Part shown: positions 2,975-62,921 of the stretch, in pieces
How positions within the stretch are numbered: the first letter of the stretch is position 1
How the letters are laid out: each line of letters begins with the position of its first letter
Assembly: GCF_035555815.1 (NCBI RefSeq)
Contig: NZ_DATMGG010000184.1
Location: forward strand, 11,088 to 75,087
Direction of reading: 5' to 3'
From: Sphingomonas sp.
GTDB taxonomy: Bacteria; Pseudomonadota; Alphaproteobacteria; Sphingomonadales; Sphingomonadaceae
DNA: 64,000 nt
Made by a program: the position numbers and the translations under genes
Notes under the pieces: model-generated
Seen by the model: the letters and a program-made list of their open reading frames with translations, nothing else
Told to the model about the DNA's origin: nothing
The model's database searches: none

Positions 2975-3065
2975 CCGTTCGTGCTGAGCTTGTCGAAGCA
3001 CCGCCCTTCTTTTGCGCGCGCCGGTTTGAAGAAGGACGGCCCTTCGACAAGCTCAGGGCGAACGG
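2975..3065. repeat. REP-like palindromic doublet, family A (copy 1, fliP-fliQ intergenic)
   Basis: CCGTTCGTGCTGAGCTTGTCGAAGCAC ... GCCCTTCGACAAGCTCAGGGCGAACGG, 91 bp. Confidence 0.92.
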
Positions 3066-19885: not shown

Positions 19886-19978
19886 TGGCGGAGACGGAGG
19901 GATTCGAACCCTCGGTAGGAGTAATCCCCCTACGGCGGTTTAGCAAACCGCTGGTTTCAGCCACTCACCCACGTCTCC
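19886..19978 (-). tRNA. tRNA-Ser (GCT)
   Basis: GGAGACG acceptor...CGTCTCC-G-CCA; anticodon arm GCGGT-TTGCTAA-ACCGC; long variable arm; GGTTCGAATCC T arm. Confidence 0.97.
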
Positions 19979-24175: not shown

Positions 24176-26500
24176 TCAGCGCCGTTTGCCCTGGTGCCGG
24201 ATGTTGGCCGGCCGCCCGCGCCGTTTGAGCACGCGTGGCGGTCCGCCCCGGCGGCCATCGCCGCCGCCCGCCGAGCCCTTGCCGTCGGGCAGCTCGAAGC
24301 GCAACGCGCCCGATACCGGATTGGCCTCCGCCAGCCGCAACCTTAGCCGCTGGCCCAGCGCGAATTCGGTGCCGCTATGCTCGCCGACCAGCCGCTGCCC
24401 GGTCTCGTCCCAGCGGAAATATTCGGCGCCCAGATCGCGGGCCGGCACCAGCCCGTCGCCGCCGACCCCGTCGATCGTCGCGAAGAAGCCGAAGCTCTGC
24501 ACCCCGGTGATCCGCGCCTCCATCACCTCGCCGACATGCTCGCTGAGGTAGGCGGCGACGTAGCGATCGACAGTCTCGCGCTCGGCCTCCATCGCGCGGC
24601 GTTCGAGCTGGCTGATCGCTTCGCCGATCCGCTCGAAATTGGCGGTCTCCTCCGGCGTCAGCCCGCCCGGCCCCAGCTTGTACCCTTCCACCAGCGCGCG
24701 GTGCACCATCAGGTCGGCATAGCGGCGAATGGGCGAGGTGAAATGCGCGTAGCTGCCCAGCGCCAGCCCGAAATGCCCGGCGTTCTGCGGCCCGTAATAG
24801 GCCTGGGTCTGCGTCCGCAGCACCTGTTCCATCGCCTGCGGCCGGAAATCGGCGTCGCCGACCCGGTCGAGCAGCTGGTTGAACGTGCCGGGCCGGATCA
24901 CCTGGCCCAGCGCGAAATCGACGCCGAACGTCTTGAGATACTCCTTGAGCGCGACCAGCTTCTCGCGCGCCGGCGGTTCGTGGATGCGGTACATCACCGG
25001 CATCTTCTTCGCCTCCAGCGCCTTGGCGGCGGCGACGTTGGCGGCGATCATGTAATCCTCGATCAGCTTGTGCGCGTCGAGCCGTTCGCGCGGCGCCACC
25101 GACAGGATGCGCCCCTTTTCGTCGAGCACGATCCGCCGTTCGGGCAGGTCGAGGTCGAGCGGATCGCGCCGCTCCCGCGCGACGTTCAGCGCGCGCCAGC
25201 AATCCCACAGCGGTTTGAGCGCGGTCTCGGTCAGCGGGTGGGGCTTGATCCCGTCGATCGCCGCCTGCGCGTCCTCATAGGCGATGTTCGCCGCGATCCG
25301 CACCACCGCGCGGGTGAAGCGGAAATCGCTGATCGCGCCGTTCTTGCCGACGGTGAAGTGGCACGCGAGCGCCGCACGGTCGACGTCCTGCTTGAGTGAG
25401 CACACGTCGGCCGACAGGATCTCTGGCAGCATCGGCACCACCCGGTCGGGGAAATAGACGCTGTTGCCGCGCCGCCGCGCCTCCCGGTCGAGCAGCGATC
25501 CGGGCCGGACGTAGAAGCTGACGTCGGCGATCGCGACGATCGCGTCCCAGCCGCCGTTCCCGTTGGGCTGTGCCCACACCGCGTCATCGTGGTCGCGCGC
25601 GTCGACAGGGTCGATCGCGACGATCGGCAGGTGGCGCAGATCCTCGCGCTCCCCAATCTCCGTTCGTGCTGAGCTCGTCGAAGCACCGCCCTTCCTTCCA
25701 TCGCTCGAAGAAAAGGGCGGCCCTTCGACAAGCTCGGGGCGAACGGTCTGGATGGGGCCGAGGCTTTGCCCCGCGACTGCCTTCGCCTCGTCGAGCAATT
25801 CGCCCGAAAACACGTTGGGGATGCCGTGGCGGTGGATCGCGATCAGCGAGAAGCTGCGCGGCGCGAACGGATCGCCCAGCCGCTCGATCACCCGCGCGGT
25901 CATTCGCGGCGGCCGGCCGGCCTTTTCCGCCACCACAAGTTCGCCCGGCTGCGCGTCGCCGGCATCGGAGACCAGGAAGTCGCGCCGTTCCTTCTTCTCC
26001 ACCCCTTGCAGGAACAGCTTGCCGCCCTCCTCGCGCAGCACGCCGATCATCGTCTCCTCGCCGCGCGGGAGCTTCTTCATCGGATGCGCGGTCCAGCCGC
26101 CGCCCGTCTCCTCGGTCCGCGCGAGGATGCGGTCGCCGACGCCCAGCGCGCCCTGCTTGCGGTCGCGCACGCGCAGCCGCGGCTCGGGCACGCCCTCCGC
26201 CTCCCACCGCTCGGGCTGCGCCCAGACGTTGCCGCCGTCGTCGACGTCGACGATCCGCAGCACGGTCACCTTCGGCAGCCCGCCCATCGCGTGAAAGGCG
26301 CGGCCGGGGGCGCTGTCGATCAGCCCCTCGTCGCCCATGTCCTTGAGCAGCGCCTTGAGCGCGATCTTGTCGGCGCCGTGCAGGCCGAACGCGCGCGCGA
26401 TCTCCCGCTTGCCCGCCGGGGTGGGGGACGACGCGATGAAATCGAGGACCTGCTGGCGGGTCGGCAGACCCGGGACGATCTTGCGGGGGCGATTGGCCAT
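24176..26500 (-). CDS. rnr: Ribonuclease R (carries an in-frame family A repeat insertion)
   Basis: IDP.DARDHDDA catalytic motif, HFTSPIRRYADL, C-terminal S1 domain. Confidence 0.96.
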   Translation of the reverse strand: MANRPRKIVPGLPTRQQVLDFIASSPTPAGKREIARAFGLHGADKIALKALLKDMGDEGLIDSAPGRAFHAMGGLPKVTVLRIVDVDDGGNVWAQPERWEAEGVPEPRLRVRDRKQGALGVGDRILARTEETGGGWTAHPMKKLPRGEETMIGVLREEGGKLFLQGVEKKERRDFLVSDAGDAQPGELVVAEKAGRPPRMTARVIERLGDPFAPRSFSLIAIHRHGIPNVFSGELLDEAKAVAGQSLGPIQTVRPELVEGPPFSSSDGRKGGASTSSARTEIGEREDLRHLPIVAIDPVDARDHDDAVWAQPNGNGGWDAIVAIADVSFYVRPGSLLDREARRRGNSVYFPDRVVPMLPEILSADVCSLKQDVDRAALACHFTVGKNGAISDFRFTRAVVRIAANIAYEDAQAAIDGIKPHPLTETALKPLWDCWRALNVARERRDPLDLDLPERRIVLDEKGRILSVAPRERLDAHKLIEDYMIAANVAAAKALEAKKMPVMYRIHEPPAREKLVALKEYLKTFGVDFALGQVIRPGTFNQLLDRVGDADFRPQAMEQVLRTQTQAYYGPQNAGHFGLALGSYAHFTSPIRRYADLMVHRALVEGYKLGPGGLTPEETANFERIGEAISQLERRAMEAERETVDRYVAAYLSEHVGEVMEARITGVQSFGFFATIDGVGGDGLVPARDLGAEYFRWDETGQRLVGEHSGTEFALGQRLRLRLAEANPVSGALRFELPDGKGSAGGGDGRRGGPPRVLKRRGRPANIRHQGKRR
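25660..25746. repeat. Family A doublet (copy 2) inside rnr, 87 bp
   Basis: CCGTTCGTGCTGAGCTCGTCGAAGCAC ... GCCCTTCGACAAGCTCGGGGCGAACGG; read as TVRPELVEGP...GASTSSARTE. Confidence 0.92.
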
Positions 26501-30450: not shown

Positions 30451-30530
30451 CCGTTCGCCCTGAGCTTGTCGAAGGGCCGTTGTTCTTCGCGGAAGAAAGG
30501 ACGGTGCTTCGACAAGCTCAGCACGAACGG
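30451..30530. repeat. Family A doublet (copy 3, gcvH-gcvPA intergenic)
   Basis: CCGTTCGCCCTGAGCTTGTCGAAGGGC ... GTGCTTCGACAAGCTCAGCACGAACGG, 80 bp. Confidence 0.92.
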
Positions 30531-32147: not shown

Positions 32148-32388
32148 CCTCTGTCACGGAAACCTGAGAGCTTTGACCCCGTGCTGTCGCCGGGGCTTAC
32201 ACCTTCGGTGGCCCGGCTCTCACCGGACGCTTTCCAGAGTGTCGGGCCTCGCGCGGTCCCTGGTGCCTGAGAGATTCCGGGGCGGTTGCTCCTTCGGCGG
32301 CGGGGCACCCCGTTGCTCCGATCGAACCACCGGCACGCCGGCGACGATCGGAGAGGTGACCCAGCACTCTCCCGCGCGAGCCTCGACC
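32148..32388 (-). ncRNA. Tandem glycine riboswitch
   Basis: Two aptamers on the minus strand: GGAGAG..CCGAAGGAGCAA..CTCTCAGG..GGACCG and CTCTGGAAAG..CACCGAAGG..CTCTCAGG..GACAGAG; upstream of gcvT. Confidence 0.93.
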
Positions 32389-34051: not shown

Positions 34052-34867
34052 ATGGCCAAATCCTCCAGCACGACCCCCGGCAAGCCGAAACGTTCCGAAT
34101 GGCGCGAAACGCTGGGCTTTCTCGTCAAGCTCGCGCTTGTCGTGTTCATTTTCCGCAGTTTCGTGCTGTCGCCCTTTTCGATCCCCAGCGAATCGATGCT
34201 GCCGCGCCTGCTGATCGGCGACTATCTGTTCATCTCGAAATGGAACTACGGCTACTCGCGCCATTCGCTGCCGCTCAGCCTGCCGCTGATCCCCGGCCGG
34301 GTCTTCGGCAGCACGCCGGCGCGCGGCGACGTGGTGGTGTTCAAGGCGCCGCCGGGCAACAAGGCCGACTATATCAAGCGCGTGATCGGGCAGCCCGGCG
34401 ACACCATCCAGATGCTGCGCGGCCGGCTGATCCTGAACGGCAAGCCGGTACCCAAGCAGCGCGTCGCCGATTTCATCGTGCCGATCACCCCCAATTACGG
34501 CTGCGAGGGCCAGTTCCAGGATGAGGTCGGCGGAAAGCCGGTGTGCCGCTACCCGCAGTTCCGCGAGACGCTGCCGAACGGCAAGAGCTACAACGTGCTC
34601 GATCGCGGCTATTTCCCGCAGGCCGACGATACCGGGGTCTATACCGTGCCCGCCGGCCACCTGTTCATGATGGGCGACAATCGCGACGCCAGCGCCGACA
34701 GCCGCTTCCCGGCGGTGGAGGGTGAGGCGATCGGCATGGTCCCGCTGGAAAATGTCGAGGGCAAGGCGCTGGTCGGCTTCTGGTCGACCGACGGCAACGC
34801 CCGGTGGCTGCTGCCATGGACATGGTTCACCGCCGCGCGGTGGAACCGGATCGGGATGGGGTTCTGA
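34052..34867 (+). CDS. lepB: Signal peptidase I
   Basis: IPSESMLP (Ser), YIKRVIG (Lys), GDNRD.S.DSR; start 34040 or 34052. Confidence 0.96.
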   Translation: MAKSSSTTPGKPKRSEWRETLGFLVKLALVVFIFRSFVLSPFSIPSESMLPRLLIGDYLFISKWNYGYSRHSLPLSLPLIPGRVFGSTPARGDVVVFKAPPGNKADYIKRVIGQPGDTIQMLRGRLILNGKPVPKQRVADFIVPITPNYGCEGQFQDEVGGKPVCRYPQFRETLPNGKSYNVLDRGYFPQADDTGVYTVPAGHLFMMGDNRDASADSRFPAVEGEAIGMVPLENVEGKALVGFWSTDGNARWLLPWTWFTAARWNRIGMGF

Positions 34868-35529
34868 GCGCCGATCTCGATGCCTGGCTGGCGGCGACGC
34901 TGGGCGTCGCCCCCGCGCACCGCGCCGCGTTCGAACGCGCGCTGACCCACGGCAGCCAGGCCGCCGAAAACTACGAGCGGCTCGAATTCCTGGGCGATCG
35001 GGTGCTGGGGCTGACCATCGCCGAATGGCTGTACGAACGCTTCGCGCATGAGCCGGAGGGGCAGTTGTCCAAACGGCTCAACGCGCTGGTGACCGGCGCG
35101 GTGTGCGCCGACGTCGCGCGCGAGCTGGGCGTGCCGTCGCGGCTCAGGCTGGGCAAGCAGGCGCGCGACGACGGCGCCGCCGCCAGCGACAATGTGCTGG
35201 GCGACGTGATGGAGGCGTTGATCGGGGCGCTCTATCTCGATCAGGGGCTGGATGCGGCGCGGGCGTTGGTCCGCCGCTGCTGGGCTGGCCGGATCGACCA
35301 GTTGCGCGTGCCACAGCACCCCAAATCGGCGCTCCAGGAATGGGCCGCCGCACACAATCGCCGCCCGCCCGAATATGCTGTGGTCGACCGCAGCGGTCCC
35401 CAGCACGCGCCGCGCTTCCGGGTGCAGGTGACGATCGGCAAGCTCGCCGACGCGGTGGGCGAGGGCACGTCGAAGCAGGAAGCGGAAACGGCGGCGGCGG
35501 CGGCGCTGCTGGCGGCGCTGGCGGGGTGA
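34864..35529 (+). CDS. rnc: Ribonuclease III
   Basis: ERLEFLGDRVL signature, D.MEALIGA, C-terminal dsRBD (PKSALQE); start ambiguous (CTG 34864, GTG 34840 or ATG 34822). Confidence 0.95.
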   Translation: MSADLDAWLAATLGVAPAHRAAFERALTHGSQAAENYERLEFLGDRVLGLTIAEWLYERFAHEPEGQLSKRLNALVTGAVCADVARELGVPSRLRLGKQARDDGAAASDNVLGDVMEALIGALYLDQGLDAARALVRRCWAGRIDQLRVPQHPKSALQEWAAAHNRRPPEYAVVDRSGPQHAPRFRVQVTIGKLADAVGEGTSKQEAETAAAAALLAALAG

Positions 35530-35567
35530 GGGTGCCCCCATCCGTGATCGCGATGCTTGCGGCGAGC

Positions 35568-35662
35568 AAGAGCGGTGCTTCGACAAGCTCAGTACGAATG
35601 GGCGTGTTTTGGTACGCTCCATTCTTTCCCGTTCGTGCTGAGCTTGTCGAAGCACCGCTCTT
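35568..35662. repeat. Family A arm pair in inverted (right arm then left arm) order, upstream of the GIY-YIG gene
   Basis: AAGAGCGGTGCTTCGACAAGCTCAGTACGAATGGG -25 bp- CCCGTTCGTGCTGAGCTTGTCGAAGCACCGCTCTT; 35-bp stem with 2 G:U pairs. Confidence 0.92.
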
Positions 35663-35680
35663 CAGCCTGGGCGGCGAACG

Positions 35681-36070
35681 ATGAGCTTTTGCGCCTATAT
35701 GCTCCATTGTCGCGGCGGTGTGTTCTACGTCGGCCATACCGAGAACCTCGACCAGCGCATCGCCGCACATCATGCCGGCGAGTCCGCCTACACGCGCCAA
35801 TATTTGCCGCTCGAACTGGTCTGGTCGCAGGATTTTCCCAACCGTCTGGAGGCCTTGGAGGCCGAGCGCCGGATCAAGGGGTGGAGCCGGGCGAAGAAGC
35901 TGGCGTTGATCCGTGGGGACTGGACCGCGATTTCGGTGCTGGCGGCGAGCAAGAACGGTCCTTCGACAAGCTCAGGACGAACGGGGGCGGGTGAGGCGCA
36001 TCAAAGCCATTCCGTTGGTGCTGAGCCTGTCGAAGCCCCCACCTCCTCATCAACAAGGCTTATCCCATGA
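35681..36070 (+). CDS. Stand-alone GIY-YIG nuclease (UPF0213/YhbQ-like), REP-flanked
   Basis: AYMLHC..G.FYVGHT.NL..R...H ... EALEAERRIKGWSRAKK.ALI; tail translated through family A arms; stop overlaps the era ATG. Confidence 0.88.
   Translation: MSFCAYMLHCRGGVFYVGHTENLDQRIAAHHAGESAYTRQYLPLELVWSQDFPNRLEALEAERRIKGWSRAKKLALIRGDWTAISVLAASKNGPSTSSGRTGAGEAHQSHSVGAEPVEAPTSSSTRLIP
35960..36036. repeat. Family A arm pair (right arm then left arm) at the 3' end of the GIY-YIG gene
   Basis: CCTTCGACAAGCTCAGGACGAACGGG -26 bp- CCGTTGGTGCTGAGCCTGTCGAAGC. Confidence 0.9.
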
Positions 36071-36960
36071 CCCAACATTGCGGCCTGATCGCCGTGGTCG
36101 GCGCGCCCAATGCCGGCAAGTCGACGCTCGTCAACGCGCTGGTCGGGCAGAAGGTGGCGATCGTCAGCCCCAAGGCGCAGACCACGCGCGCGCGGCTGAT
36201 GGGGATCGCGATCCACGACGCCACCCAGTTGCTGCTGGTCGACACCCCCGGCATCTTCGAGCCGCGGCGCCGGCTCGATCGCGCGATGGTCTCGGCGGCC
36301 TGGGGCGGCACCGAAGGGGCGGACCTGATCGCGCTGGTGGTCGACGGCAAGGGCGGCATCGGGCCAAAGGTCACCACGATCCTCGAATCGCTCGCGCCCC
36401 GGCCAGAGCCGAAGCTGCTGATCCTCAACAAGGTCGACATCGCCGACAAGCCGCGCCTGCTCGGCCATGCGGCGAAACTCAACGAGGCGCTGCCGTTCGC
36501 GGAGACCTTCTTCGTCAGCGCGACCACCGGCGACGGCGTGCCCGAGCTGAAGGCGGCGCTGGCGGCGCGGATGCCGGAGGGGCCGTGGCATTTCCCCGAC
36601 GATCAGGTCGCCGACATGACCGACCGGATGCTGGCGGCGGAGGTGACGCGCGAGCAGCTCTATCACCAGCTCCACGCCGAACTGCCCTATGACAGCGCGG
36701 TCGAGACCGAACGCTATCAGGAGCGCGACGACGGATCGGTCGAGATCCACCAGCAGATCCTGGTCGCGCGCGACACCCAGCGCGCGATCGTGCTGGGCAA
36801 GGGCGGCAGCCGCATCAAGGAGATCGGCGCCAAGGCGCGCGCCGAGCTGAAGGAACTGCTCGGCGTGCCCGTCCACCTCTATCTGCACGTCAAGGTCAAC
36901 CCGCGCTGGGAAGAGGACCGGAGCCTCTATCGCGACATCGGGCTGGATTGGGTCGACTGA
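36067..36960 (+). CDS. era: GTPase Era
   Basis: GAPNAGKST, QTTR, DTPG, NKVD, KH domain (LGKGG..IK.IG). Confidence 0.97.
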   Translation: MTQHCGLIAVVGAPNAGKSTLVNALVGQKVAIVSPKAQTTRARLMGIAIHDATQLLLVDTPGIFEPRRRLDRAMVSAAWGGTEGADLIALVVDGKGGIGPKVTTILESLAPRPEPKLLILNKVDIADKPRLLGHAAKLNEALPFAETFFVSATTGDGVPELKAALAARMPEGPWHFPDDQVADMTDRMLAAEVTREQLYHQLHAELPYDSAVETERYQERDDGSVEIHQQILVARDTQRAIVLGKGGSRIKEIGAKARAELKELLGVPVHLYLHVKVNPRWEEDRSLYRDIGLDWVD

Positions 36961-40461: not shown

Positions 40462-40553
40462 CCGTTCGCGGCTGCATCCCTCGATGCCCCGCCTGTCCTT
40501 TGACACCGTGCGCTAGAAGAAGCGCGGCCCTTCGACAAGTTCGGCGCTGACGG
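40462..40553. repeat. Degenerate family A doublet (serA-hisZ intergenic)
   Basis: CCGTTCGCGGCTG..TCGATGCCCCGCC ... AGAAGAAGCGCGGCCCTTCGACAAGTTCGGCGCTGACGG. Confidence 0.65.
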
Positions 40554-42186: not shown

Positions 42187-42271
42187 CCGTTCGGGCTGAG
42201 CCTGTCGAAGCCCCGCCCTTCTTGAACGGTCGAGAAGACGTGCGGCCCTTCGACAAGCTCAGGGCGAACGG
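42187..42271. repeat. Family A doublet (serC-serA intergenic)
   Basis: CCGTTCGGGCTGAGCCTGTCGAAGCCC ... GCCCTTCGACAAGCTCAGGGCGAACGG, 85 bp. Confidence 0.92.
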
Positions 42272-53249: not shown

Positions 53250-53338
53250 CCGTTCGTGCTGAGCTTGTCGAAGCACCGCCCTTCTTCGGCCGCGCGCCGG
53301 ACAAAAGCGCGGTTCTTCGACGGGCTCAGCACAAACGG
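53250..53338. repeat. Family A doublet (dsbA-smc intergenic)
   Basis: CCGTTCGTGCTGAGCTTGTCGAAGCAC ... TTCTTCGACGGGCTCAGCACAAACGG, 89 bp. Confidence 0.88.
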
Positions 53339-62054: not shown

Positions 62055-62921
62055 ATGAGCATCGCCCGTGTCCTGATCATCGCCGGGTCCGATTCGGGCG
62101 GCGGCGCGGGAATTCAGGCCGATATCAAGGCGGTGACGATGCTCGGCGGCCACGCGATGACCGCGATGACCGCGCTGACCGCGCAGAATTCGCTGGGGGT
62201 GCAGGGGGTGATGCCGGTGCCGGCGGCGTTCGTGCTGGCGCAGATCGATTCGGTGGTGGGCGATCTTGGCGTCGACGCGGTCAAGATCGGGATGATCGGA
62301 TCGGCGGAGGTGGCGCACGCCGTCGCCGACCGGCTCGAATCGCTCGACGTGCCGATCGTGTTCGATCCGGTGATGGTGGCGACCTCGGGATCGGTGCTCG
62401 CCGACGCCGCCACGGTCGCGGCGTTCGAACGGCTGATGCGGATGGCGGCGCTGGTCACGCCGAACGTTCCCGAACTCACCGCGCTCGCTCTTTCCGTTCG
62501 CCCAGGGCTTGGCGAAGCGCCGCGCGCGTCGTCGGAGGAACAGGACGCTGCCCTGACCGACTCGGCACGAACGGAACTGGGCCGGGCGCTGGCCGACCAT
62601 CTCGGCGTCGCCGTCCTGGCAAAGGGGGGCGATCTGCCCGGCGCCGATGTCGTCGACATTCTCCTTGGCCCCGACGGTTCCCACCGCGTCTGGTCCGATC
62701 CGCGTATCGACACGCCGCACAGCCATGGCACCGGCTGCACGCTGGCCAGCGCGATCGCCACCGGGCTGGCGCAGGGGATGGCGCTGCCCGATGCGATCGC
62801 GCGCGGGCGGCGGTTCGTCCGCGCCGCGCTGGCCCATGCGCCGGGACTGGGGGCCGGGCACGGCCCGATGGGCCATGCGCTGGGCATCGCGCCGTTCGAC
62901 GTGTGGGAGGCGCGGGGCTGA
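62055..62921 (+). CDS. thiD: Hydroxymethylpyrimidine/phosphomethylpyrimidine kinase (with degenerate family A insertion)
   Basis: IAGSDSGGGAGIQADIK, KIGM, DPVMVA.SG, TPN..E, HGTGCTLASA. Confidence 0.95.
   Translation: MSIARVLIIAGSDSGGGAGIQADIKAVTMLGGHAMTAMTALTAQNSLGVQGVMPVPAAFVLAQIDSVVGDLGVDAVKIGMIGSAEVAHAVADRLESLDVPIVFDPVMVATSGSVLADAATVAAFERLMRMAALVTPNVPELTALALSVRPGLGEAPRASSEEQDAALTDSARTELGRALADHLGVAVLAKGGDLPGADVVDILLGPDGSHRVWSDPRIDTPHSHGTGCTLASAIATGLAQGMALPDAIARGRRFVRAALAHAPGLGAGHGPMGHALGIAPFDVWEARG
62494..62574. repeat. Degenerate family A doublet inside thiD, 81 bp
   Basis: CCGTTCGCCCAGGGCTTGGCGAAGCGCCG ... AGGACGCTGCCCTGACCGACTCGGCACGAACGG; aligns end to end with 30451..30530. Confidence 0.8.

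What the first reader, a model, noticed from the sequence alone, without database searches (positions are those of the whole stretch)
35540..36070. Candidate REP-associated GIY-YIG nuclease system (REPIN/RAYT-like pair with a non-HUH enzyme)
Seen: a small GIY-YIG gene (~90 aa core with Y, R and E residues in the expected motif positions) interrupts the conserved lepB-rnc-era operon. It is bracketed by four arms of the same repeat that forms seven doublets elsewhere in the window (2975, 25660, 30451, 40462, 42187, 53250, 62494). The inner arms (35628 left, 35960 right) enclose the gene exactly as left and right arms enclose the short spacer in the free doublets, so the locus reads as a doublet whose spacer is a nuclease gene. 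Established: in REPIN/RAYT systems a single-copy HUH tyrosine transposase is flanked by its REPs and maintains dispersed doublets. Inference: this GIY-YIG nuclease is the cognate enzyme that nicks and spreads family A repeats. I know of no functional characterisation of such a pairing, but I cannot search the literature here.
Basis: partly seen in the sequence, partly recalled or inferred. Interest (0 to 1): 0.88.

Follow-up and report, generated by a model that had tools for sequence, protein, structure and literature searches.

The report
Hairpin-paired nuclease, cousin of Ssn
A tiny DNA-cutting gene sits in the rnc-era operon between copies of a hairpin repeat found about 100 times in this genome, and its relatives carry matching hairpins; it likely cuts those hairpins as the published Ssn enzymes do and may help spread them, but it is a separate protein branch with a different hairpin.

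Summary
A GIY-YIG gene (35681-36070) lies between rnc and era, in the arm order R-L-gene-R-L. The genome has 106 such arms (simulation: 0) and no RAYT was found. The idea is not new: Chenal et al. 2025 (PMC11893778) showed that small GIY-YIG nucleases (Ssn, cd10448) cut their flanking hairpins as ssDNA and drew the REP/RAYT parallel. This scan also noted such pairs on other DNA (e1-4249000, e1-9831900). This protein is not an Ssn member: it groups with UPF0213/YhbQ, apart from Ssn-type genes (100/99 support), and 0 of 106 arms fit the Ssn repeat pattern. Its lineage has its own hairpin core (stem-GAG…TCGA-stem) at 179 of 183 loci, against 0 of 24 Ssn-type and 0 of 13 YhbQ-like loci. Two protein subtypes each track their own arm variant across 150 genomes. 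Relatives show empty, doublet-only and gene-carrying rnc-era sites. Best reading: a site-specific ssDNA hairpin nuclease whose nicks, with host repair, slowly spread arms and cassette. Cutting and spreading are untested, and some arm-rich genomes lack the gene. Verdict: new variant of a known kind.

The parts
34864..35529 (+). rnc (RNase III); start approximate, stop at 35527-35529
   Evidence: ORF list, Pfam RNase III and dsrm
35542..35574 (+). Remnant of a second copy of the nuclease gene's 3' end (reads SVIAMLAASKSG against TAISVLAASKNG)
   Evidence: 61-nt direct repeat 35542-35602 vs 35925-35985 at 85%; 21 of 33 nt identical beyond the arm tail, against 4-16 at most other loci listed
35575..35601 (-). 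Outer upstream arm (R orientation), type A hairpin
35629..35655 (+). Inner left arm (L): CCGTTCG tag, 5-bp stem, tandem G-A mismatches, G-C pair, C(TT)G cap
   Evidence: covariation across 106 arms
35681..36070 (+). UPF0213-like GIY-YIG nuclease gene; 90-aa core 35681-35950 with Y6, Y16, R26, H30, E62; the tail reads through both downstream arms; the stop overlaps the era start (ATGA)
35958..35984 (-). Inner right arm (R), inside the read-through tail of the ORF
36012..36038 (+). Outer downstream arm (L)
36067..36960 (+). era GTPase
2975..3065 (.). Free L-R doublet of the same arm
25660..25746 (.). Free L-R doublet
30451..30530 (.). Free L-R doublet
40462..40553 (.). Degenerate doublet (only the R arm passes 5 mismatches)
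42187..42271 (.). Free L-R doublet
53250..53338 (.). Free L-R doublet
62494..62575 (.). Degenerate doublet (only the L arm passes 5 mismatches); right end approximate

Best explanation
This is an arm-gene-arm cassette inserted between rnc and era, whose UPF0213-like GIY-YIG nuclease likely binds the single-arm hairpin as single-stranded DNA and likely nicks just 5' of its CCGTTCG tag, as Ssn enzymes do, with host repair of those nicks inferred to spread free doublets and, rarely, the cassette. SHOWN here: the pairing of gene and arm; an arm hairpin with compensatory changes; matching of protein subtype to arm variant; intact catalytic residues and purifying selection in the family; insertion relative to empty alleles; many different genomic sites. 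INFERRED by analogy with SsnA: ssDNA binding, strand specificity and the cut position. Because the tags face outward, one nick on each strand would mark the two ends of a doublet or cassette. INFERRED and weakest: mobilisation. From established knowledge, GIY-YIG enzymes hydrolyse DNA without the covalent tyrosine intermediate of HUH transposases, so joining would need host recombination or ligation rather than RAYT-style strand transfer. The gene is likely expressed with the operon and coupled to era translation.
For: Arms flank both sides at 59 of 75 full-flank homologous loci, 4.1 vs 0.077 arms/kb. The generic core occurs at 179 of 183 lineage loci, 0 of 24 Ssn-type, 0 of 13 YhbQ-like and 14 of 378 background windows. 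In a later draw centred on a Dehalococcoidia genome, 4 of 4 genes scoring 96 bits or more had the core (one seen before) and 0 of 13 lower-scoring ones did. Arm pairs 8:26 and 9:25 are Watson-Crick in 94 and 95 of 106 arms (39 and 51 expected), while the two arms of a doublet do not match each other more than chance (9 of 42). Ten or more arms occur in 35 of 51 genomes with the gene and 17 of 99 without. Double dissociation after removing flanking arms: PP-tailed proteins predict B arms (coefficient 3.1 vs 0.9), the others predict A arms (3.1 vs 0.85); both subtypes sit in this genome, each with its own arm. Among 24 same-genus genomes the rnc-era site has the gene in 6, a free doublet in 1 and no arm in 12; era has another neighbour in 5. 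239 loci fall into 92 downstream contexts. dN/dS median 0.10 over 89 pairs. Y6/Y16/E62 correspond to SsnA Y6/Y17/E64. No Y1_Tnp in this genome or in 5 arm-rich genomes. ATGA overlap with era at 19 of 38 era-site loci, one locus counted twice.
Against: No biochemical data exist for this lineage. Seventeen of 99 genomes without the gene still hold 10 or more arms, including complete ones (G185: 53 arms and no small GIY-YIG hit; G104: 64). Within-genus discordant pairs give 12 vs 4, p=0.077; related genomes are not independent, so the large p-values overstate. Subtype matching is imperfect: 9 of 31 genomes with only non-PP genes have 10 or more B arms, 3 of 9 PP-only genomes have 10 or more A arms, and this genome has a B-type gene but only 3 B arms. 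Paralogs within a genome are 44-88% identical (29 pairs), so no recent copying was seen. No target-site duplication (p=0.09). A single origin of the era-site genes is not rejected (p-AU 0.166). The arm patterns, the generic core and the PP signature were defined after I had seen the flanks. One YhbQ-like gene (L326) has an arm nearby. ViennaRNA gives the single arm no better energy than shuffles (z about 0.3-0.5).
Confidence: 0.6

Rival explanations
1. The nuclease does recognise its arm, but works for the host (restricting or trimming incoming ssDNA as SsnA does in Neisseria, or resolving doublet cruciforms), while the repeats spread by other means such as recombination or a borrowed transposase.
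For: This is the only in vivo role shown for SsnA. Strong purifying selection and long residence at a few housekeeping sites. Arms persist without the gene.
Against: It does not by itself explain why the gene is bracketed by outward-facing arms at many unrelated sites, why the gene's 3' end plus arm is duplicated upstream here and in L063, or the patchy presence of the gene (51 of 150 genomes). No alternative transposase was found.
Confidence: 0.25
2. The protein is simply a divergent member of the Ssn family and the arm a divergent SRM, so nothing here goes beyond the 2025 paper.
For: Same size, residues and layout. BLAST E-values of 3e-14 to 1e-10 (database size set to 1e6) against several SRM-flanked genes would pass the paper's loose homolog cut-off. 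Rhizobial-type members of the lineage have CGTCAT/CCTCAT tags like CGTC repeats.
Against: The paper defines Ssn as the cd10448 clade. The rooted tree joins this lineage to YhbQ/UPF0213 at 100/99, apart from Ssn-type genes. Profile scores are 82 bits (YhbQ-like) vs 70 (Ssn-type), and 164 of 193 lineage members prefer the YhbQ-like profile. 0 of 106 arms and 0 of 183 loci fit the SRM pattern.
Confidence: 0.1
3. The arms are RNA-level elements (terminators or stability hairpins) or a MITE moved by an unrelated transposase, and the nuclease gene is passive cargo captured between two arms.
For: Doublets are intergenic (36 of 38 not at contig edges), usually 6-35 nt after a stop codon, and enriched between convergent genes (15 of 36, against 188 of 954 gaps) by a crude gene call.
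Against: Passive cargo would not be the same gene family at 179 of 183 loci, nor show subtype-to-variant matching. No target-site duplication. No Rfam family matches the arms.
Confidence: 0.05

Closest known systems
Ssn nucleases with NTS/SRM hairpins (SsnA, CDD cd10448; Chenal et al. 2025, PMC11893778)
   Same: Single-domain GIY-YIG of about 90 aa with the Tyr/Tyr/Glu set; gene bracketed by inverted copies of a tagged hairpin that is also dispersed in the genome; protein-specific hairpin variants.
   Different: Separate branch that groups with UPF0213/YhbQ; tag CCGTTCG rather than CGTCA in sphingomonads; an invariant GAG…TCGA internal loop; missed by the SRM pattern; activity untested.
REP/REPIN-RAYT systems (as described in PMC3733652 and PMC11893778; mechanism recalled)
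   Same: Low-copy enzyme gene flanked by its repeats; intergenic inverted doublets with the tags outward; no target-site duplication seen.
   Different: The enzyme is GIY-YIG, not an HUH tyrosine transposase; no GTAG tag; no Y1_Tnp found in the 6 genomes searched.
CGTC-tagged repeats (Di Nocera et al. 2013, PMC3733652)
   Same: Alphaproteobacterial tagged hairpins in head-to-head dimers just downstream of genes, reported to lack a dedicated transposase.
   Different: Those have 8-9 bp stems, 4-5 nt loops and a CCA tail; this arm has a 5-bp stem with tandem G-A mismatches and another tag. The paper's Fig. 2 consensus sequences could not be seen.
UPF0213 / YhbQ-like bacterial Slx1-type nucleases (PDB 1ZG2, 1YWL; E. 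coli yhbQ)
   Same: Best sequence and fold matches (E 1.6e-20; Foldseek ranks 1-2); joined in the tree.
   Different: The 13 YhbQ-like loci in the main comparison have no such hairpins and form their own 99/97 branch; this lineage has a GWSRAKK motif and a C-terminal helix extension.

Membership tests
Ssn (cd10448) | Small single-domain GIY-YIG protein with the catalytic Tyr, Tyr, Glu | tested here: met
   PF01541 only; Y6 and Y16 invariant, E62 in 90% or more of 37 rows; SsnA Y6/Y17/E64
Ssn (cd10448) | Falls in the Ssn clade of the GIY-YIG tree | tested here: not met
   With SRM-flanked genes as stand-ins (Neisseria SsnA itself was not in the set): lineage plus YhbQ-like 100/99 apart from them, rooted on UvrC, 95 columns; 99 SH-aLRT in the 93-row tree
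Ssn (cd10448) | Top CDD hit is cd10448 | not testable with these tools
   No CDD library here; NCBIfam and PHROGs gave no hit
Ssn (cd10448) | BLAST E below 1e-10 and 75% cover to N. meningitidis SsnA | tested here: inconclusive
   SsnA not fetched; against stand-ins E 3e-14 to 1e-7 at database size 1e6
Ssn (cd10448) | Flanked by hairpins that fit the published SRM pattern | tested here: not met
   0 of 106 arms; 0 of 183 lineage loci. The pattern also misses the hairpin beside this genome's own Ssn-type gene, so it is narrow
Ssn (cd10448) | Gene bracketed by its own dispersed, oriented hairpin | tested here: met
Ssn (cd10448) | Site-specific cleavage of ssDNA 5' of the hairpin | not testable with these tools
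   needs an in vitro assay
REPIN-RAYT | HUH tyrosine transposase (Y1_Tnp) flanked by the repeats | tested here: not met
   The flanked gene is GIY-YIG; no PF01797 in this 87%-complete genome or in 5 arm-rich genomes; the control rang in 6 of 14
REPIN-RAYT | GTAG tag at the 5' end of the repeat | tested here: not met
   Arm consensus starts CCGTTCG
REPIN-RAYT | Dispersed intergenic inverted doublets | tested here: met
   42 L-R doublets plus one tandem pair; 36 of 38 intergenic by a crude gene call
CGTC repeats (Di Nocera 2013) | CGTC/TGTC/CCTC tag, 8-9 bp stem, CCA tail | tested here: not met
   Arm anatomy against the text of section 6; the figure was not visible
UPF0213 / YhbQ-like | Closest sequence profile and fold | tested here: met
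   margin over Ssn-type is modest (82 vs 70 bits); CDD cd10456 (name recalled) not testable

The most novel reading that the evidence does not exclude
This UPF0213-like lineage is the missing enzyme of a RAYT-independent REP/REPIN-like system. It nicks its own GAG…TCGA hairpin on ssDNA, and host repair multiplies free doublets and moves the cassette into the starts of housekeeping genes (era, dnaG, an rRNA/tRNA methylase, a pseudouridine synthase). Each paralog maintains its own repeat population. Repeat-free YhbQ-type genes may be domesticated descendants, since they nest inside the arm-linked lineage in the rooted tree (long-branch caveat).
Probability: 0.35. Interest if true: 0.8.

Novelty: new variant of a known kind. 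Interest (0 to 1): 0.55.

Why it matters
It would roughly double the known range of site-specific ssDNA nucleases with a second protein branch and a different hairpin class that the published Ssn search pattern misses, and each subtype comes with a predicted substrate. It also gives a small, direct test of an open question: what makes and maintains REP-like repeats that have no RAYT (PMC3733652 reports that CGTC repeats lack a transposase; PMC11893778 only proposes the link). One genome holds A-type, B-type and Ssn-type genes, which is a ready cross-specificity panel.

Tried and rejected
Rfam scan of the window: only a tRNA and a glycine riboswitch, nothing on the arms. NCBIfam and PHROGs: no family. 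Phage and plasmid records: only distant matches, apart from 3 large alphaproteobacterial replicons, so no sign of phage or plasmid carriage. Target-site duplication and inverted flanks around 42 doublets: not above shuffled pairings. Repeated independent insertion at rnc-era: the tree scatters era-site genes, but the AU test does not reject one clade. RAYT as the true mobiliser: none found. Ssn-type genes adopting the A arm in arm-rich genomes without the lineage gene: 0 of 13 loci. Sequencing runs: no RNA holder listed. Contigs tile the locus with no differences and show empty rnc-era junctions in related organisms, but cannot show excision. The profile search of protein representatives was never run because the queue was full, so total family size and full phylum range stay open. 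Literature searches without a relevant hit: UPF0213 + GIY-YIG, 0 papers; GIY-YIG + 'repetitive extragenic palindromic', 0; SsnA + nuclease since 2023, only the Ssn paper relevant among 20 of 46 listed; YhbQ + nuclease, 3 listings, not read; GIY-YIG/REPIN/RAYT, none of the 20 listed of 52 joins GIY-YIG to RAYT systems by its listing; RIME search uninformative. The library lacks most subscription papers.

Full report
VERDICT. The locus is real and the nuclease-repeat pairing is specific. It works like the published Ssn system but is a separate protein branch with a different hairpin. Cutting and repeat spreading are inferred, not shown.

OBSERVATION. Between rnc (stop 35529) and era (start 36067) lies ORF 35681-36070, a GIY-YIG protein (PF01541, E 3.6e-14; neighbours confirmed as lepB, rnc and era). 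Four arms start at 35578 (R), 35629 (L), 35961 (R) and 36012 (L). The genome (2.64 Mb, 87% complete) has 106 arms within 5 mismatches, against 0 in a Markov simulation. They form 42 L-R doublets, one L-R-L-R cluster, 12 singles and 3 R-L pairs, two of which are at this locus. The closest homologs come mostly from Sphingomonadales.

THE ARM. The consensus is a CCGTTCG tag followed by a hairpin. Positions 8:26 and 9:25 vary yet pair in 94 and 95 of 106 arms, where 39 and 51 are expected. Positions 12-13 face 21-22 as G-A and A-G in 99 and 94 arms, followed by a G-C pair and a C(TT)G cap. The two arms of one doublet carry the same variant in only 9 of 42 cases (28% expected), so selection appears to act on the single-arm hairpin rather than on the long doublet stem (inference). 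ViennaRNA does not favour the single-arm fold over shuffles; it may undervalue tandem G-A pairs (my knowledge). By a crude gene call, 36 of 38 doublets are intergenic, mostly close behind stop codons and enriched between convergent genes; no target-site duplication was found. Rfam has no match.

THE PAIRING. Among 80 homologous loci, 75 had full flanks. Of these, 59 have arms on both sides and 65 on at least one; density is 4.1 arms/kb near the gene and 0.077 further away. Most of the ten 'misses' that I inspected carry a longer arm variant. Pooling genome and metagenome loci, a generic core (4-bp stem, GAG, variable cap, TCGA, stem) occurs at 179 of 183 lineage loci, 0 of 24 Ssn-type loci, 0 of 13 YhbQ-like loci and 14 of 378 background windows. 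The pattern was written after seeing flanks. In a later draw centred on a Dehalococcoidia genome, 4 of 4 genes scoring 96 bits or more had the core (one had been seen before) and 0 of 13 weaker ones did. One YhbQ-like gene in another genome (L326) has an arm nearby.

ACROSS GENOMES. In 150 family-level genomes the profile hits are bimodal, and 51 genomes hold the lineage. Ten or more A arms occur in 35 of those 51 and in 17 of the other 99; medians are 25, 1.5 (other GIY-YIG only) and 0 (none). Kin are not independent, and discordant within-genus pairs give only 12 vs 4 (p=0.077). This genome has a second paralog before dnaG (L001) with a different cap (B arm). A protein-only feature, a PP tail (noticed after seeing the labels), marks 20 of 23 B-flanked genes and 0 of 41 A-flanked genes. 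After removing flanking arms, PP genes predict genome-wide B arms (3.1±0.5 vs 0.9±0.35 log2 units) and non-PP genes predict A arms (3.1±0.4 vs 0.85±0.5). Exceptions are common, and complete genomes such as G185 keep 53 arms with no small GIY-YIG gene. No Y1_Tnp was found here or in five arm-rich genomes.

MOBILITY. Among 24 same-genus genomes, the rnc-era gap holds the gene in 6, a free doublet in 1 and no arm in 12 (one with a 0-nt gap); era has another neighbour in 5. Contigs from two public runs also show empty junctions, one at about 91% identity to the window. The 239 lineage loci fall into 92 downstream contexts, with six recurrent ones: a SpoU-family methylase (38), era (38), dnaG (29), an unnamed protein (19), a pseudouridine synthase (13) and a JAB protein (8); a few loci are counted twice. 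Paralogs within a genome are 44-88% identical, so movement is slow. A single origin of the era-site genes is not rejected. Here and in L063 the gene's 3' end plus its R arm is duplicated upstream of the L arm (21 and 31 of 33 nt). This suggests a past tandem copy, for example by re-integration of a circular form, followed by deletion (inference from 2 of about 45 loci listed; a third high score, L189, looks like a self-match). At era, the ORF ends in an ATGA overlap in 19 of 38 loci despite tails of 9-81 aa; era's own ATG-A supplies that stop, so this is only moderate evidence of coupling.

THE PROTEIN. Y6, Y16, R26 and H30 are invariant and E62 nearly so in 37 sequences; dN/dS has a median of 0.10 (the window gene was not in that set). 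The model is confident (pLDDT 95), and its best matches are UPF0213 structures, then Slx1. This genome also has an Ssn-type gene with CGTCA-tagged hairpins (L002), 43% identical to ours, which hits 1ZG2 only at E 0.017. In a UvrC-rooted tree, the lineage and YhbQ-like proteins form a 100/99 branch apart from Ssn-type genes, with YhbQ nested inside (95 columns, long branches; 48 rows picked from the larger set). Profile scores favour YhbQ-like over Ssn-type modestly (82 vs 70 bits; 164 of 193 members).

WHAT IS KNOWN. Chenal et al. 2025 (PMC11893778; I read the abstract, passages, sections 8, 10, 12, 17 and 18, part 3 of the peer-review file, and searched 12 of 14 supplements) show that SsnA binds its hairpin as ssDNA, cuts a few bases upstream, and limits transformation. 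They define Ssn as the cd10448 clade, give the SRM pattern and propose the REP/RAYT parallel without testing it. UPF0213, cd10456 and the arm motif do not occur in the main text or searched supplements; two files and all figures were unseen. Di Nocera et al. 2013 (PMC3733652; passages, section 6, supplement search) describe CGTC repeats without a transposase. Dunin-Horkawicz et al. 2006 (PMC1564403; two passages; author name recalled) call 1ZG2 and 1YWL bacterial Slx1-family members. I found no paper on this lineage and its hairpin, within an open-access library. Earlier AI notes of this scan report the same idea on other DNA; they are not independent evidence.

MECHANISM. Most likely (0.6) the enzyme recognises tag plus hairpin on ssDNA and nicks 5' of the tag; outward-facing tags would put one nick at each end of a doublet or cassette, and host repair would complete occasional copying. 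The next rival (0.25) is the same specificity serving the host, with repeats spreading otherwise. The claim 'binds and cuts its arm' is common to both, so it stands at about 0.85; 'spreads the repeats' is the weak step.

SCORES. Novelty: new variant of a known kind. Interest 0.55. Novel case (RAYT-independent repeat-spreading enzyme): probability 0.35, interest 0.8.

Noticed in passing
L001 (G000:C190:600-1060): Second paralog of the same lineage (55% identical), inserted just before dnaG and bracketed by its own B-type arm; only 3 B arms in this genome.
   Followed up: yes
L002:1390-1830 (G000:C97): Ssn-type GIY-YIG gene flanked by CGTCA-tagged hairpins that the published SRM pattern misses; 36 matches to that hairpin's start in the genome.
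   Followed up: partly
G000:C156:27238-27463: An A-type doublet whose 178-nt spacer contains a complete doublet of the Ssn-type hairpin: one repeat family nested in another.
   Followed up: no
L371, L372, L373 (G000:C159:16135, C184:81834, C96:6655): Three DUF559 nuclease-like genes, each bracketed by inverted hairpins of other repeat families; a third kind of small nuclease with the same layout in one genome.
   Followed up: no
L012:3001-4245, L029:3001-4116, L010:3001-3699, L023:414-1313: At other sites the nuclease is fused in frame, through the arm, to the front of a pseudouridine synthase, a SpoU-family methylase, a JAB protein or an unnamed protein. Whether the fusions are translated is unknown.
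   Followed up: partly
L002, L221, L223, L226, L233, L235: The Ssn-type subclade with a SRAKK-like motif is the one whose hairpins also contain tandem G-A; the lineage studied here has GWSRAKK. Possibly a shared recognition feature, but it is one clade, so one event.
   Followed up: no
L063:2760-2860: Near-identical copy of the gene's 3' end plus R arm upstream of the cassette, with an A-type cassette at the dnaG site that usually holds B types.
   Followed up: partly
L091, L103, L104 (rnc-era gaps of relatives): The rnc-era gap also holds other hairpin repeats or an unrelated ORF in some relatives; in 5 of 24 genomes era follows a different gene.
   Followed up: no
window 47878 (minus strand match): One canonical SRM/NTS-like hairpin in the window.
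   Followed up: no
window 32244-32384 and 19889-19978: Glycine riboswitch ahead of a gcvT-like ORF (name recalled from sequence) and a tRNA; ordinary.
   Followed up: no
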